Below, in pieces: positions 46,501-52,500 of a stretch of 64,000 bases of DNA. Position numbers: made by a program. The stretch comes from Escherichia coli (lineage in GTDB: Bacteria > Pseudomonadota > Gammaproteobacteria > Enterobacterales > Enterobacteriaceae). Positions within the stretch are counted from its first letter, which is position 1. Each line of letters begins with the position of its first letter. The stretch lies in the NCBI RefSeq assembly GCF_048403405.1, contig NZ_CP183129.1, one strand, 5' to 3'.

Positions 46501-49500
46501 CAATGGGTAGCAGTATGGTGAATAACGTTGCGCCTAATGACGGTAGTGTTTTTTCATCGCGAACTTTGAGATCGGCAAACTCTGTGGGTACAGGTTTAAA
46601 GGGCAGTCGTTGACCCAGAAATTTAAGGAAAAGTGGGCCACCGATCAGTGATGCCATCAGCCCAACCAGCAAACCGTAGACGATCACCGAACCGATATCT
46701 GCGCCCAGCTTATTGGCAACATATAAAGCAGCCGGATGTGGGGGAACCACGCAATGCACTGCCATCAATGCGGTACACAGCGGAATGGCCAGCTTTAACA
46801 ATGAGGTATTGGTTTTTTTGGCCATTGAAAAAGCCAGAGGAATCAATAGCACGACGCCCACTTCAACAAACAGCGTGATGCCGCAAATCAGGCCAACCAG
46901 CACCATAATGACATCAGCTGAAAGCCAGCGACAGCGTTGAAGTGTCAGACCAATTCTTTCTGCGGCCCCGGATACTTCCATCATTTTTCCCAGTATCGTG
47001 CCCAGGCCGATAACCGCAGCAAGGAACCCCAGCGTTCCGCCAATTCCACTTTCAATAGCATTTACCATATCCAGTGGTCCCATACCCATCATCGTTCCCA
47101 CGAAGAAGCTGGCCAGCAACAGCGCCAGAAACGGGTGGAATTTGAACTTCACGATGGTCAGTACAATTAACACGATGCTGATAAGCAGCGTGCTCACAAC
47201 CCAGATTTGAGAGTGCATATCTCACCTTCCCCTGTGATTAACCTGATGATATTGGACAAAAAAACAACGCAGGCTGACAAACGATAAAATTTGCCTTTCA
47301 CATGAGCTAAATTGCATCAAGGGAGTGATTTACATCTAAAAATGAAGGTGAATTGAGATATGGTTCACTTTAGCTCACCTTACAGCTGAAATTTTGCCGC
47401 TATTTTTTTACACTTAAGAGAAAAATGAGGTGATTATGGAACCCCTTCGTGAAATAAGAAATCGACTGCTTAACGGCTGGCAACTATCAAAACTGCATAC
47501 TTTTGAAGTGGCTGCCAGGCATCAGTCCTTCGCCCTTGCGGCAGAGGAATTGTCGCTGAGCCCCAGTGCGGTAAGTCACCGTATCAATCAGCTGGAAGAA
47601 GAATTAGGTATTCAGTTGTTTGTTCGTTCCCATCGCAAAGTGGAATTAACGCACGAGGGGAAACGCGTTTATTGGGCGCTAAAATCGTCGCTGGATACCC
47701 TGAACCAGGAAATTCTTGATATCAAAAATCAGGAATTATCGGGAACGTTAACGCTGTATTCCCGGCCCTCTATCGCCCAATGCTGGTTGGTGCCCGCATT
47801 AGGTGACTTTACTCGCCGCTATCCGTCTATTTCGCTCACCGTGCTCACTGGTAATGACAATGTCAATTTGCAACGTGCCGGAATCGATTTGGCGATCTAC
47901 TTTGATGATGCGCCGTCAGCGCAATTGGCTCATCACTTTCTGATGGATGAAGAAATCTTGCCTGTATGTAGCCCGGAATACGCTCAAAGACATGCTTTAA
48001 CCAACCAGGTAATTAACCTGCGCCACTGTTCGTTGCTCCATGACAGACAGGCATGGAGCAACGACTCCGGTACGGATGAATGGCATAGTTGGGCGCAACA
48101 TTATGCGGTTAATTTGCCGACATCTTCTGGGATTGGCTTTGATCGTTCTGATTTAGCTGTTATCGCTGCGATGAATCATATTGGGGTAGCGATGGGAAGA
48201 AAACGCCTGGTACAAAAAAGGCTTGCCAGTGGTGAGCTCGTCGCGCCGTTTGGCGATATGACGGTGAAATGCCATCAGCATTATTACATCACCACATTAC
48301 CGGGCAGGCAGTGGCCAAAAATTGAGGCATTTATTACTTGGTTAAGAGAACAGGTAAGTCAATATGAATGTTATACCTTATAATACATTAAATCATCTGG
48401 TTCCTAAATAACCTTATTATGCACTGTAAGTGTATGTTGGCTTTATAAATTGCAATTTTTATATGGGAATTGTTTTGTCAATAGTTACGAAAAGGATAAA
48501 TAAAATAACCACATCTTCTTGGCGTCGAATATTGGAGAGCGATAATTTATAGTAAACTAGATTACCAGAGAAAAGATAAGTGGCAATATATTTGCTGGTG
48601 GCATTTTTATTAAATATTATATGTGTTGGTTTGTGACTTTAAAAAAATTAATTTTTAATAAAAAGGTGATTTATTTCTCATTTTGATTAATATTGAGGAT
48701 CCATTATGATTATCAGTTGTATGTCATAAAAATGAGGGGCTAAAAGCCTCAATGAATTGAGGCCTTTAGAACAGGGGTTATATCTTCTTTATATCTAACA
48801 CATCACCCTCCCATACTCGTTTAAATCTTGCTGCATTACTGGCTGTATATAATACCGTATGATGTATATTTCTGTGCCCTAAATAATCTTGTATTAGTCT
48901 GGTGTCTAACCCTTGATTAGCTAAAGCATACCCACAACCATGCCTAAGCATGTGAGGATGAATATTAATATTCATATTGTGACTATATTTCTTACACATC
49001 TTATACACATATTGTCTCGAGATTTTATTTCCTTGACAAGAAAGAAATAAAGAGTCTTCAAAAGGTTTTTTTACTATGTTATCACGTAGTGCTAGCCATT
49101 TTTTTAATAACAGAACAGTTTCTTTTTGCAGGGGATGTACTGTGGATAATCCATTTTTTAAACGCTTGATATATATTGCTGACTCTGAAAAGTCAATGTC
49201 GCTAATCTTTAGTGCAATAAGCTCGCTTACCCTAAGGCCATGTACATATGCCATTTGTAACATGGCTTTATCTCTAATTTCATTTTTTGAACCGTTGATG
49301 GCTTCAAAAAATAACAACCATTCACTATGAGTAATAAATTTGCGCATAATATTATCGGTTATACTAATTAAGTTAAAAAATAAACTATAAATACCAGAGC
49401 CTGGTATTATTGCTTGTTTTTTATAAGCAAGTAATGAGCTGGGGTTTAAATTATGCCACTAAATGGATATTCATCAATACCCCGCCAGAGAGATAGTTGC

Positions 49501-52500
49501 TCAGTGGGTATAGATTATTATTAGTCAACCAGTGAGCATAAATAAGCACAAGAAGTTGCGTATTATGAATAATGATTCAATGCCATGCTGGTGGTTTTTT
49601 GTGGTGAAAATATTTGTACCTTTTTGTTTACGGATGAAAAATAAACAGCCATATTATTTTGGTTAATTATTGTGTTAGTTTTAACACTCGGTGATGTTTT
49701 TTGTTATAGTGCATTAATTTTTAAATAAAAAAATTCATACATTCATGGATGTAATATATACAAGATACAATGTTAATTTTAGATAAAATATTAATTGCAT
49801 TGGATACTTTTTAAATATGCCGATGTTGAGCTTAATTTTATGAGGGAATGCTATTTCGGGCTGTAGGACTTTTTTATAATCATCTTATAGGGCTCTTTAT
49901 ATTTACAGGAGGGTTTTGAACGATAGTTACATAACGAAGGTTGTTTGTATGCGTTTACAAGCGATTAATTAGATTAGGTGAATTTTAATAAATTAATCTA
50001 TAATCATACAGCAACTATATGAATTATATTATTGACTAAATTTAATTCTTTCATCATAGTTGACATGGCTATTTTATATCAATAGAGGTGATTTATGCAA
50101 AACAGAAAATTTTTAACGCATCATGAAATTAATTTACTACTTCAATCTGTAAAACAAAAGAGTTGCTCTTCACGCGATGTTTGCATGATTTTATTGGCTT
50201 ATTTTCATGGTCTGCGTGTTAGTGAGCTCTTATCTCTGCAGTTGTCGGATTTAGAACTAACTACAGAAAAAATATATATTCAACGGATAAAAAATGGATT
50301 CAGTACAGTCCATCCACTTCAAAAGGAAGAGGTGATTGCAATAACAAACTGGCTGAATGAAAGGAATTCATTAAATGTTAAACATTTCAATGATAACCCG
50401 TGGTTATTTGTTTCCCGAACAGGAAAACCATTATCGAGACAACGATTTTATAACATAGTTTCTGCTGCGGGTAAAAATGCAGGTTTAAATATTAAAGTTC
50501 ATCCACATATGTTACGCCATGCATGTGGTTATTCACTAGCAGATAATGGTGTGGATACCCGTCTTATTCAGGACTATCTCGGGCATCGTAATATCAGGCA
50601 TACGGTAATTTATACTGCTTCTAATTCAATGAGATTTGAAAAAATGTGGGGGAGAGGTGACGCAAAAAAGCAACATTTTGACCCAAAATGTAAACCCAAT
50701 CTTTGTTTAGAAATTCTCGTATAGAAAAACATTTTTTTCTATAAAAAACATTAAATTTACTGATTTAGATCAATATGTGACGTCAATCTACACATAAAGA
50801 GGTAGGTTTGTCTTCTTTTTAATCTTTGGCGTATAAAGCCAAAATGTAAATAATAATCAAAATTATATTCTGAATTAAAATAAATACGCAGGTTTTTTAC
50901 CTGCGTTTTGTGCTATTTATAGTTAATTAAATTGATGTTGTCAAAATGGGTCATTTTGTAAACCTGTGCCTCAAGGTTTGTCTCCCCCCGGTGTGCAAAG
51001 CAAAAGGAAATTGGGAAAGGGGATAACAGGAAATTGATTGCATGGTTTTGATTACGACGACAAAAAATATTTTTTTAATTCAAGCAATTAAGAGTATGCG
51101 TTGGCGGGGTTTTTCGTACGTGAAAGTCATCGCTGTGGACGACTATTCTTCTCTGATTCGTGATTTTGGCACATCTTGCTTTCGGGATGAGCAATCGTTG
51201 TTGTTACCTGTATTCCCTGATAATGATTCTACTACCTGTATACGCTCACTGTATTTCATTCACCAATGGCTAAAAAGCCAGCCTGTCAATATTCCGTGCC
51301 TGGCATGGGGGGATAATGGTGTAGTTAGTAATAAAGGCATACCTTTCATACCGTGGAAATTAACAGCAGAGCAATTTTGTTTCTATATAGATAAATTTAT
51401 CAATGGCTGGAGGTGCAAAAAAAATATTCGCGCGAATCATAAAGTTTCTTTTTTAGAACGACAATTATCCCCGAGGGAGAAAAGTATCTTTATATATACC
51501 AAGGAAGGAAAAGATATTGCATGGATCTCGAACACCTTGGGTATATCCAGTAAGACTGTGTGGACGCATCGTCGTAGAGCTATGGATAAACTCGGGGTAA
51601 AACGTTTACATCAATTTATAAATATTCCGCGTTCCCTTATTAGTGAAAATATTCAATTTTAATGTACGTTCAAGAGTATTAGTGTTATGAATAAAATATA
51701 TAAAGTCATTTGGAACCATACAACCCAAAAATGGGATGTTGTTTCAGAATTGACGAGTTGTAGAAAAAAATGTAAATCAACTCGCTTAGGAATTGCTTTA
51801 TCAGCAATGGTTCTGGGGGGCGCTATTGCAATTAATTGCAATAGCGCAATGGCAGATGTCATATTGTCACCAGACTGGCGTCCGGGTACGAATAAATCGG
51901 GTGTTGGGGCTGCAACAGTAAGTGGTAAAACCGAATACATCACTGGTCCAAATGTCGTCCAGTCTGGTGGGTCAGGTCTTATCTGGATGACTGTAGAACA
52001 GGCAATTTTAAATGGCTACACCACTGGAGATAATTTATCCGGATTGATTTACGTCAATACCGGAGAAAAAACAAAAACCATTACAGTGAAGGATGAGGTT
52101 ACTGGCGCTTCTCAAACACTTCAAGTGTTTGATACTGACTCTTTCTCACAACGCGATGCGGGGACTGGGGGAAATGAAACCATTCCTGGTTTTAGTGGCA
52201 CTGCGGATTTTTTCAATGCGACACGTTTTGTAACAGCCAATAATGGCGGTACAGCTATTTTGGATGTGGGTTCACCAGCAATCGGTAATTTTTTTAAAAA
52301 TACACAGCTTGCTGTAGCTGATGGAGAAGGTTCCTCTGTTGTATGGAACTCGGTCAATGATTTTTATTTTCAGCCTGGTGCAACCATGCAGGGGGGCGGC
52401 GTTACTCAAAAAATCATTGACTCAATGAAATATGCTGGAACAATTACTGATTGGGCGGGAAAAGTACACCATATTAACTCTCTTGATGATTTAAAGCAAT

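What the first reader, a model, noticed from the sequence alone, without database searches (positions are those of the whole stretch)
49348..50094. About 750-bp AT-rich non-coding region between the two divergent recombinase genes
The long, very AT-rich intergenic region has no convincing ORF and sits between two paralogous FimB/E-like recombinase genes. It may hold H-NS-bound divergent promoters or further regulatory sites controlling recombinase expression and hence switching frequency. I did not find a second convincing inverted-repeat pair by eye.
Basis: seen in the sequence. Interest (0 to 1): 0.3.

Follow-up and report, generated by a model that had tools for sequence, protein, structure and literature searches.

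The report
Spacer between ipuB and ipuA genes
This is the AT-rich non-coding spacer between the two known E. coli DNA-invertase genes ipuB and ipuA; it most likely just carries their two promoters, and I found no second DNA switch, gene or RNA element in it.

Summary
Window 49348-50094 is a 747-bp gap with 28% G+C, the most AT-rich stretch of the 64-kb window. It lies between two divergent FimB/FimE-type recombinase genes.

The locus is already published. It is the E. coli ipu module beside dsdCXA: ipuB, ipuA, the invertible ipuS switch, ipuR and upaE. The spacer occurs full length, once per genome, in 236 of 5,426 complete E. coli genomes and nowhere else.

Searches inside it found:
- no Rfam family, no decayed gene and no conserved ORF;
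- no inverted-repeat pair that is both above chance and conserved;
- no copy of the ipuS or fimS core repeat.

A published whole-genome inversion screen in CFT073 found no further invertible element.

The spacer evolves at about the neutral rate (pi 0.026; ipuB dS 0.021). One σ70-like promoter match faces each gene, and both are kept in all 17 strains compared, apart from one -10 base change in strain XJ6.1. No start site has been mapped, and H-NS binding is inferred from base composition only.

One real oddity remains. An ~85-bp hypervariable patch (49501-49583) gives most strains a perfect ribosome-binding site and a 26-codon ORF. The window's allele lacks this.

Verdict: an ordinary divergent promoter spacer of a known system, of low interest.

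The parts
49348..50094 (.). ipuB-ipuA intergenic spacer: 747 bp, 28.2% G+C, no annotated feature
   Evidence: Full length and in one piece in 236 of 5,426 complete E. coli genomes.
48778..49347 (-). ipuB, tyrosine-type DNA invertase (189 aa)
   Evidence: The protein (WP_001224626.1) is identical in 15 of the 17 E. coli genomes whose annotation was read; dN = 0 and dS = 0.021.
50095..50724 (+). ipuA, tyrosine-type DNA invertase (209 aa, full length, i.e. ipuS in the OFF state)
49450..49477 (-). Predicted ipuB promoter: TTGATG, 16-nt spacer, TG-CATAAT. The inferred start near 49443 gives a leader of about 96 nt.
   Evidence: Invariant in all 17 sequences. Prediction only.
50032..50060 (+). Predicted proximal ipuA promoter: TTGACT, 17-nt spacer, CATAGT. 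The inferred start is near 50067. The Shine-Dalgarno sequence GAGGTGA lies at 50084-50090.
   Evidence: The hexamers are unchanged in 16 of 17 sequences. Prediction only.
49681..49710 (+). Distal promoter-like site: TTAACA, 18-nt spacer, TG-TATAGT (10 of 12 matches). If used, it would give ipuA a leader of about 375 nt.
   Evidence: The hexamers are invariant. Prediction only.
49376..49422 (.). Hairpin with the perfect core palindrome AATACCAG-AGC-CTGGTATT (49390-49408), followed by T-runs on both strands. It lies between the predicted ipuB promoter and the ipuB ATG, and looks like a terminator or attenuator.
   Evidence: z = -2.7 and -3.3. Conserved apart from one G-U-compatible change. It is the only perfect copy in the window.
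49501..49583 (.). Hypervariable patch; the variable sites are densest at 49548-49597
   Evidence: 18 variable sites in 50 bp; the largest value in 5,000 permutations was 15. 195 of 236 genomes are only 80-90% identical here, while all are >=95% in the next 106 bp.
49532..49666 (+). Longest ORF in the spacer (44 codons, GTG start, in the window). In the majority allele it becomes a 37- or 26-codon ORF preceded by AAGGAGGTG. It is not conserved in frame.
   Evidence: It is not in the protein collection and has no homologue in the foreign loci.
49438..49466 (-). Weak resemblance (20 of 29) to the ipuS half-site that lies in ipuA. It overlaps the predicted ipuB -10 element, and the 7-bp crossover core is not kept (CATAATT against CAAAATG).
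   Evidence: 1.3% of shuffles reach this score, uncorrected for two queries
49493..49517 (.). Left arm of the best inverted repeat in the spacer (partner 49994-50018, 476 bp apart). Judged to be chance.
50684..50958 (.). Context only: the known ipuS invertible element (7-bp inverted repeats CAAAATG / CATTTTG), outside the finding

Best explanation
The region is the shared upstream spacer of the divergently transcribed recombinase genes ipuB and ipuA, in the known E. coli ipu phase-variation module (ipuB, ipuA, ipuS, ipuR, upaE, beside dsdCXA).

Most likely each gene has its own σ70 promoter near its own end of the spacer. These are P(ipuB) around 49450-49477 on the minus strand and P(ipuA) around 50032-60 on the plus strand. 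The roughly 550 bp between them is horizontally acquired, very AT-rich DNA under little sequence constraint. Because of its composition it is probably coated by H-NS-type nucleoid proteins that keep both recombinase genes at low expression.

It is not itself a site of DNA inversion, and it holds no gene or known RNA.

Shown here: the identity of the locus, the absence of ORF, RNA family, pseudogene and repeat signals, and the evolutionary rate.

Inferred: the promoter positions, H-NS binding and any effect on switching frequency.
For: Locus identity:
- RefSeq annotation of identical or near-identical DNA.
- Papers PMC6083910 and 10.1101/494401.

Promoters:
- ipuA was expressed from its native upstream DNA in published plasmids.
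- The same five promoter-like sites occur in both haplotype classes, with one facing each gene close to it.
- The P(ipuB) block is invariant, and the P(ipuA) hexamers are unchanged in 16 of 17 sequences.

Composition:
- 28.2% G+C, the lowest in the window.
- Runs of 8 or more A/T bases are enriched, 24 against 17.6.

Nothing else found:
- Rfam gave no hit at E <= 1.
- No remnant of a recombinase, AraC or LysR gene.
- ORFs are not conserved.
- No similar DNA elsewhere in E. coli, plasmids or phages.

Evolutionary rate:
- pi is 0.026 for the spacer, against 0.019 for the two neighbouring non-coding stretches.
- dS is 0.021 for ipuB.

No inversion:
- No ipuS or fimS core sequence is present.
- The best inverted repeat is marginal and not conserved.
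- The SVRE whole-genome screen with each of the five recombinases overexpressed found only fimS, hyxS and ipuS.
Against: - No transcription start site has been mapped for ipuA or ipuB, so the promoter positions are consensus matches only. Such matches are not enriched over shuffles (5 against 6.8 +/- 2.6).
- H-NS binding is untested. The H-NS motif, IHF and Lrp consensus sites are not enriched, and AA/TT shows no helical phasing.
- Near-neutral evolution argues that most of the 747 bp has no sequence-specific role.
- The longest invariant run (64 bp) is not significant (p = 0.17).
- The hypervariable patch and the conserved hairpin in the presumed ipuB leader are not explained by a plain promoter-spacer model.
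Confidence: 0.7

Rival explanations
1. Mostly inert spacer. Only the roughly 100 bp next to each start codon is functional. The central ~500 bp is filler left by the assembly or rearrangement of the island, for example after loss of a regulator gene of the kind that sits between the recombinase genes in relatives. It has no regulatory role.
For: - The spacer evolves at the neutral rate and shows no significant conserved block.
- The corresponding upstream regions in Escherichia whittamii show no similarity to it.
- In relatives the space between the recombinase genes holds a gene: AraC-type in E. whittamii, LysR-type in the Phytobacter and Limnobaculum loci.
Against: - No trace of such a gene remains.
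- All 236 genomes keep the spacer full length. With only 2-4% divergence this is weak evidence.
- Extreme AT-richness is itself what H-NS recognises, so function could be compositional rather than sequence-specific (inference from general knowledge).
Confidence: 0.3
2. The spacer encodes a small peptide or upstream ORF (26-37 aa, ...NSMPCWWFFCGENICTFLFTDEK). Its translation is lineage-variable and influences recombinase expression.
For: - In the majority allele (about 83% of carriers) the sequence AAGGAGGTG lies 8 nt before a GTG that opens 26 codons.
- Only 2.4% of shuffles give GGAGG plus a start codon plus an ORF of at least 20 codons.
- The last 20 codons lie in a 54-bp invariant run.
Against: - The window's own allele has a weak ribosome-binding site and a frameshift.
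- The start codon varies (ATG, GTG or GCG).
- 7 of 8 substitutions in the ORF are non-synonymous or hit the start codon.
- No homologue was found in 80 foreign loci, and the exact sequences are absent from a 15-billion-protein collection.
- The p-value is post hoc.
Confidence: 0.08
3. The hairpin at 49376-49422 is a working RNA element. It could be an attenuator that ends most ipuB transcripts about 65 nt after the start, or the terminator of a short plus-strand RNA antisense to the ipuB leader.
For: - A perfect 8-bp palindrome followed by T-runs on both strands. Terminator-like sites number 2 against 0.2 +/- 0.5 in shuffles.
- Folding z-scores are -2.7 and -3.3.
- It is conserved in 17 sequences, and the one stem change keeps pairing.
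- A promoter-like site lies upstream of it on each strand.
Against: - The stem is AU-rich with only 3 G-C pairs, so it would be a weak terminator.
- In CFT073 the minus-strand T-run is interrupted and the site is no longer called.
- There is no Rfam match and no expression data.
- It could equally be a protein operator or chance.
Confidence: 0.1
4. The spacer contains a second Fim-type invertible element, or a recombination site that pairs with ipuS.
For: - It lies next to two invertase genes.
- Fim-type inverted repeats are only 7-9 bp long, so sequence alone cannot exclude one.
- The pair 49493-49517 / 49994-50018 has two 9-bp perfect blocks.
- Site 49438-49466 resembles the ipuS half-site that lies in ipuA at 20 of 29 positions.
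Against: - The SVRE screen in CFT073, with each of the five recombinases overexpressed, detected the 260-314-bp switches ipuS and fimS (and hyxS) but no new inversion.
- The inverted repeat matches 20 of 25 only in the window-like alleles and 16-17 of 25 in the others, below the shuffle mean of 18 for the best pair.
- The crossover core is not kept in the half-site look-alike.
- No CAAAATG or TTGGGGCCA sequence is present.
- All 236 assemblies are collinear. This is weak evidence, because ipuS itself is in one orientation in all 236.
Confidence: 0.03

Closest known systems
Regulatory regions upstream of fimB and fimE in E. coli K-12 (type 1 fimbrial recombinase genes)
   Same: Long, AT-rich non-coding DNA upstream of FimB-family tyrosine recombinase genes. 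From memory, not tested here: fimB and fimE each have their own promoters and are repressed by H-NS (Olsen and Klemm 1994; Donato et al. 1997), and recombinase level sets switching frequency.
   Different: - fimB and fimE are in tandem, not divergent.
- From memory, the fimB upstream region carries mapped NanR, NagC and IHF sites. No such sites stand out here.
- There is no sequence similarity: a sensitive blastn of the spacer hits only ipu loci in 5,426 E. coli genomes.
ipuS / fimS / hyxS invertible promoter switches
   Same: Non-coding, AT-rich, next to the same recombinase genes, and containing promoter-like sequences.
   Different: - No bounding inverted repeat that is conserved or above chance.
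- None of the known core repeats is present.
- No inversion was seen in the published genome-wide screen.
- At 747 bp it is longer than the 260-314-bp switches.
The ipu-like locus of Escherichia whittamii (L003), the nearest relative found outside E. coli
   Same: It has an IpuB-like gene (66% identity), an IpuA-like gene (64%) and an ipuS-like repeat region downstream of ipuA (87% over 39 bp).
   Different: - The two recombinase genes are in tandem.
- The space between them holds a 287-aa AraC-family gene.
- The upstream DNA shows no similarity to the E. coli spacer.
H-NS-silenced AT-rich horizontally acquired DNA (xenogeneic silencing)
   Same: 28% G+C within a 28-38% G+C module, inside a 47% G+C window. 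The module is catalogued as part of a pathogenicity island at argW (PMC7545054).
   Different: H-NS occupancy at this locus has not been measured; I found no paper reporting it.

Membership tests
Fim-type invertible promoter switch (fimS / hyxS / ipuS) | A pair of short inverted repeats bounding a segment of a few hundred bp | tested here: not met
   The best pair matches 20 of 25, which 3.7% of shuffles reach. It falls to 16-17 of 25 in the majority haplotypes. No CAAAATG or TTGGGGCCA core is present.
Fim-type invertible promoter switch (fimS / hyxS / ipuS) | The segment is found in both orientations | tested here: inconclusive
   All 236 assemblies are collinear, but the positive control ipuS is also in one orientation in all 236. 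The published SVRE screen in CFT073 found no new inversion.
Fim-type invertible promoter switch (fimS / hyxS / ipuS) | A tyrosine recombinase gene lies next to it | tested here: met
   ipuB and ipuA flank the region.
Divergent promoter region | Bounded by the start codons of two genes that read outward | tested here: met
   The ipuB ATG is at 49347 (minus strand) and the ipuA ATG at 50095 (plus strand).
Divergent promoter region | A promoter for each gene lies inside it | tested here: inconclusive
   One conserved σ70-like match faces each gene, but the number of matches does not exceed shuffles. ipuA works from cloned native upstream DNA. No start site has been mapped.
H-NS-bound xenogeneic DNA | A+T content well above the genome average over hundreds of bp | tested here: met
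   72% A+T over 747 bp, the most AT-rich stretch of the window.
H-NS-bound xenogeneic DNA | H-NS occupancy and derepression in an hns mutant | not testable with these tools
   No ChIP or expression data were found. The H-NS motif gave 4 hits against 2.3 expected, not significant, and there is no AA/TT phasing.
Small protein gene or leader peptide | An ORF kept in frame with a conserved start, and purifying selection or homologues | tested here: not met
   The window allele carries a frameshift, the start codon varies, and most changes are non-synonymous. No homologue was found.
Known non-coding RNA family (Rfam 15) | A covariance-model match | tested here: not met
   No match at E <= 1 in 47000-52500 on either strand.
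Pseudogene or decayed gene | Residual protein similarity in some reading frame | tested here: not met
   tblastn with IpuA, IpuB and the AraC- and LysR-type genes that occupy the equivalent space in relatives gave chance-level hits only.

The most novel reading that the evidence does not exclude
The ~85-bp hypervariable patch (49501-49583) could be a lineage-variable regulatory module. In about 83% of carriers it forms a perfect Shine-Dalgarno sequence plus a GTG start for a 26-aa Cys/Trp/Phe-rich peptide. It also lies about 60-140 bp upstream of the predicted ipuB promoter. Allelic differences there might tune ipuB and ipuA expression, and so the switching rates of ipuS and fimS, between E. 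coli lineages.
Probability: 0.07. Interest if true: 0.4.

Novelty: already known. Interest (0 to 1): 0.12.

Why it matters
IpuA and IpuB flip ipuS, which controls the UpaE adhesin. The literature read here says IpuA also flips fimS (type 1 fimbriae) in uropathogenic E. coli. The papers disagree on IpuB and fimS: two say IpuB does not act on fimS, while the SVRE screen saw a fimS signal when IpuB was overexpressed. The amount of recombinase sets how often cells switch, so the promoters in this spacer are a real gap in knowledge about a known system.

Nothing in the sequence points to a new kind of element. The practical value of this check is negative: the spacer need not be pursued as a hidden switch, gene or RNA. 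The one feature that might repay a small experiment is the allele-specific hypervariable patch.

Tried and rejected
1. Rfam scan at E <= 1: nothing.
2. Decayed gene. tblastn with IpuA, IpuB and the AraC/LysR genes found in the same position in relatives gave only chance hits.
3. Second invertible element. The best inverted repeat is marginal and not conserved. The look-alike of the ipuS half-site lacks the crossover core. No ipuS or fimS core is present.
4. Using assemblies to detect inversion. Rejected as a test, because the known switch ipuS is in one orientation in all 236 complete genomes.
5. Transcription-factor consensus scans (IHF, Lrp, H-NS motif, PhoB, CRP, NagC, OmpR-like, a lux-box-like palindrome): none above shuffles. 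Only a very degenerate Fis-like pattern was enriched (20 against 8). I do not trust it, because it is palindromic and AT-rich.
6. Dam GATC sites for Pap-type switching: none.
7. DNA curvature from AA/TT phasing: none.
8. Phylogenetic footprinting against the E. whittamii homologues: no alignable upstream DNA.
9. Mobile-element origin. Plasmid and phage collections returned only E. coli chromosomal copies filed there.
10. The 'attL' annotated inside the spacer in the phage GER2 record. Rejected, because the spacer is collinear across it, and that record labels ipuA an integrase and upaE a tail fibre.
11. Palindrome TACCAG-N3-CTGGTA as a repeated operator: the only perfect copy in the window.
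The exact look-up was empty.
13. Bryan et al. 2006, the original ipuA/ipuB paper, is not held. No paper held all three search terms (CFT073, transcription start sites, dRNA-seq).

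
Full report
**What is there.**
Window 49348-50094 is a 747-bp gap. On its left is a 189-codon ORF on the minus strand (48778-49347). On its right is a 209-codon ORF on the plus strand (50095-50724). The two proteins are 52% identical. The gap has 28.2% G+C against 47.4% for the window, and only 0.03% of all 747-bp windows are lower.

**Identity of the locus.**
- The spacer matches 236 of 5,426 complete E. coli genomes. Each match is chromosomal, single, full length and in one piece, at 96-100% identity, with no feature annotated under it.
- RefSeq names the flanking genes tyrosine-type DNA invertases IpuB and IpuA.
- To the left lie dsdC, dsdX and dsdA. To the right lie a LuxR-type regulator and the 'phase-variable autotransporter adhesin UpaE'.
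- This is the published ipu module of uropathogenic E. coli. The 260-bp invertible element ipuS lies between ipuA and ipuR, is bounded by 7-bp inverted repeats, and drives ipuR-upaE (Battaglioli et al. 2018, PMC6083910).
- In the window ipuA is full length and the ipuA-ipuR gap is 317 bp, which is the OFF state described in that paper. The repeats are CAAAATG at 50684 and CATTTTG at 50952.
- The two ipuS papers I read (PMC6083910 and 10.1101/494401) do not describe the 747-bp ipuB-ipuA spacer or map a promoter for either gene. They state only that ipuA was expressed from its 'native promoter' on plasmids.

**Searches for a discrete element inside the spacer.**
- Rfam gave nothing at E <= 1.
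- The nine ORFs of 20 or more codons are short, and the longest (44 codons) is frameshifted between strains.
- Protein-to-DNA comparison with IpuA and IpuB found no gene remnant. The same holds for the AraC- and LysR-type genes that fill the equivalent space in relatives.
- Sensitive blastn found no similar DNA elsewhere in E. coli. In the plasmid and phage collections it found only two E. coli chromosomal copies filed there.

**Is there a second switch?**
- The best inverted repeat (49493-49517 with 49994-50018) matches at 20 of 25 positions, which 3.7% of dinucleotide shuffles reach.
- That score holds only in window-like alleles. In the majority alleles it drops to 16-17 of 25, below the shuffle mean of 18 for the best pair.
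- The spacer has no copy of the ipuS core or the fimS repeat, and no GATC site.
- A 29-nt stretch (49438-49466, minus strand) resembles the ipuS half-site that lies in ipuA at 20 of 29 positions. Only 1.3% of shuffles reach this, uncorrected for two queries. The 7-bp crossover core is not kept, which argues against recombination with ipuS.
- I tried to use assemblies as evidence, but the control failed. The known switch ipuS is in the same orientation in all 236 genomes, so collinearity of the spacer says little.
- The strongest evidence is published. Whole-genome sequencing of CFT073 with each of the five Fim-type recombinases overexpressed recovered fimS, hyxS and ipuS and no other invertible element (10.1101/494401).

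**Evolutionary rate.**
I aligned 17 sequences, which gave 16 distinct spacer haplotypes.

| Region | Diversity |
|---|---|
| ipuB-ipuA spacer | pi 0.0258 |
| dsdC-ipuB gap | pi 0.0187 |
| ipuA-ipuR gap | pi 0.0192 |
| ipuB | pi 0.0048; dS 0.021, dN 0 |
| ipuA | pi 0.0029; dS 0.0038, dN 0.0027 |

- The spacer changes about as fast as synonymous sites in ipuB and as fast as the other non-coding DNA of the module.
- The longest invariant run (64 bp) is not significant (p = 0.17).
- On this shallow sample (at most 4% divergence) there is no sign of extended sequence-specific constraint.
- The nearest relative outside E. coli is an Escherichia whittamii locus. Its recombinase genes are in tandem with an AraC-family gene between them, and its upstream DNA is not alignable to the spacer. 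Deeper footprinting was therefore impossible.

**Promoters and other candidates.**
- The same five σ70-like matches occur in the window and in CFT073.
- Two are placed where promoters are expected.
  - One is TTGATG-16-(TG)CATAAT on the minus strand at 49477-49450, about 96 nt before the ipuB ATG. It is invariant in all 17 sequences.
  - The other is TTGACT-17-CATAGT on the plus strand at 50032-50060, about 27 nt before the ipuA ATG, which has a GAGGTGA ribosome-binding site. Its hexamers are unchanged in 16 of 17 sequences.
- A third match (49681-49710, 10 of 12, extended -10) would give ipuA a long leader.
- These are predictions only, and such matches are not more frequent than in shuffles (5 against 6.8 +/- 2.6).
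- Consensus scans for IHF, Lrp, the H-NS motif, PhoB, CRP and NagC are at chance level, and AA/TT shows no helical phasing. H-NS binding therefore rests on base composition and general knowledge.
- A conserved hairpin lies between the predicted ipuB promoter and the ipuB ATG (49376-49422, with a perfect 8-bp palindrome core and T-runs on both strands). Its folding z-scores are -2.7 and -3.3. It could be an attenuator, the end of a short antisense RNA, an operator, or nothing.

**The one real oddity.**
- Variable sites cluster at 49501-49583 and are densest at 49548-49597: 18 in 50 bp, against a maximum of 15 in 5,000 permutations.
- Across all 236 genomes, the 106 bp at 49495-49600 are only 80-90% identical to the window in 195 genomes. 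The next 106 bp are at least 95% identical in all of them.
- The patch is also multi-allelic within the majority class.
- In that class it reads AAAGGAGGTGTGTATTGTG. That is a nine-base perfect Shine-Dalgarno sequence followed 8 nt later by a GTG that opens 26 codons. The last 20 codons lie in a 54-bp invariant run.
- Only 2.4% of shuffles give a comparable ribosome-binding site plus ORF. That figure is post hoc.
- Against a real gene: the window's own allele has a weak site and a frameshift, the start codon varies, and most changes are non-synonymous. No homologue exists in the 80 foreign loci, and the exact peptide sequences are absent from the protein collection.
- I record it as unexplained. 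Possible causes are a short-patch import, a mutational hot spot, or selection on a regulatory or uORF element.

**Verdict.**
This is the ordinary, AT-rich divergent promoter spacer of a known phase-variation module. Its H-NS and 'further regulatory sites' parts remain unproven. Nothing here is new in kind, and interest is low.

Noticed in passing
window 50560-51100 (ipuS): The known invertible element ipuS is in the same (OFF, full-length ipuA) orientation in all 236 complete E. coli genomes that carry it. Finished assemblies therefore give no orientation polymorphism even for a proven switch.
   Followed up: partly
L088 (MG710528.1, 'Escherichia phage GER2') 1-8690; attL at about window 49696-49707: A phage record includes the ipu locus. 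It labels ipuA 'integrasse', UpaE 'long tail fiber proximal subunit', and a 12-bp stretch of the spacer 'attL'. The spacer is collinear with phage-free strains, so this looks like a prophage-boundary misannotation.
   Followed up: partly
L003 (Escherichia whittamii) 721-2924: In the nearest non-E. coli relative, the IpuB-like and IpuA-like genes are in tandem with a 287-aa AraC-family gene between them. An ipuS-like repeat region follows. So ipuB is inverted in E. coli relative to this arrangement.
   Followed up: partly
window 48778-49347 and 50095-50724: ipuB has dS 0.021 with dN 0, and its protein is identical in nearly all strains. ipuA has about five times lower synonymous diversity (dS 0.0038) with dN/dS near 0.7. 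The two neighbouring paralogues have different population histories or constraints.
   Followed up: no
window 48384-48777 and 49348-50094: Both non-coding stretches flanking ipuB have a marked excess of G over C on the plus strand (73 to 41 and 130 to 81; p = 0.0035 and 0.0009). Most other gaps in the window show none.
   Followed up: no
L089 (strain XJ6.1) and L086 (strain SCU-124): ipuB carries an internal stop in XJ6.1, which also has the only change in the predicted ipuA -10 hexamer. In SCU-124 ipuA, ipuB and upaE are all annotated as frameshifted. Its many single-base indels suggest sequencing error there.
   Followed up: no
L028 (Phytobacter massiliensis) 2307-4543; L050 (Limnobaculum allomyrinae) 2238-4546: Other divergent pairs of Fim-type recombinase genes exist, but their 1.2-kb spacers each hold a ~300-aa LysR-type regulator gene. 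The empty spacer in E. coli is the exception among those seen.
   Followed up: partly
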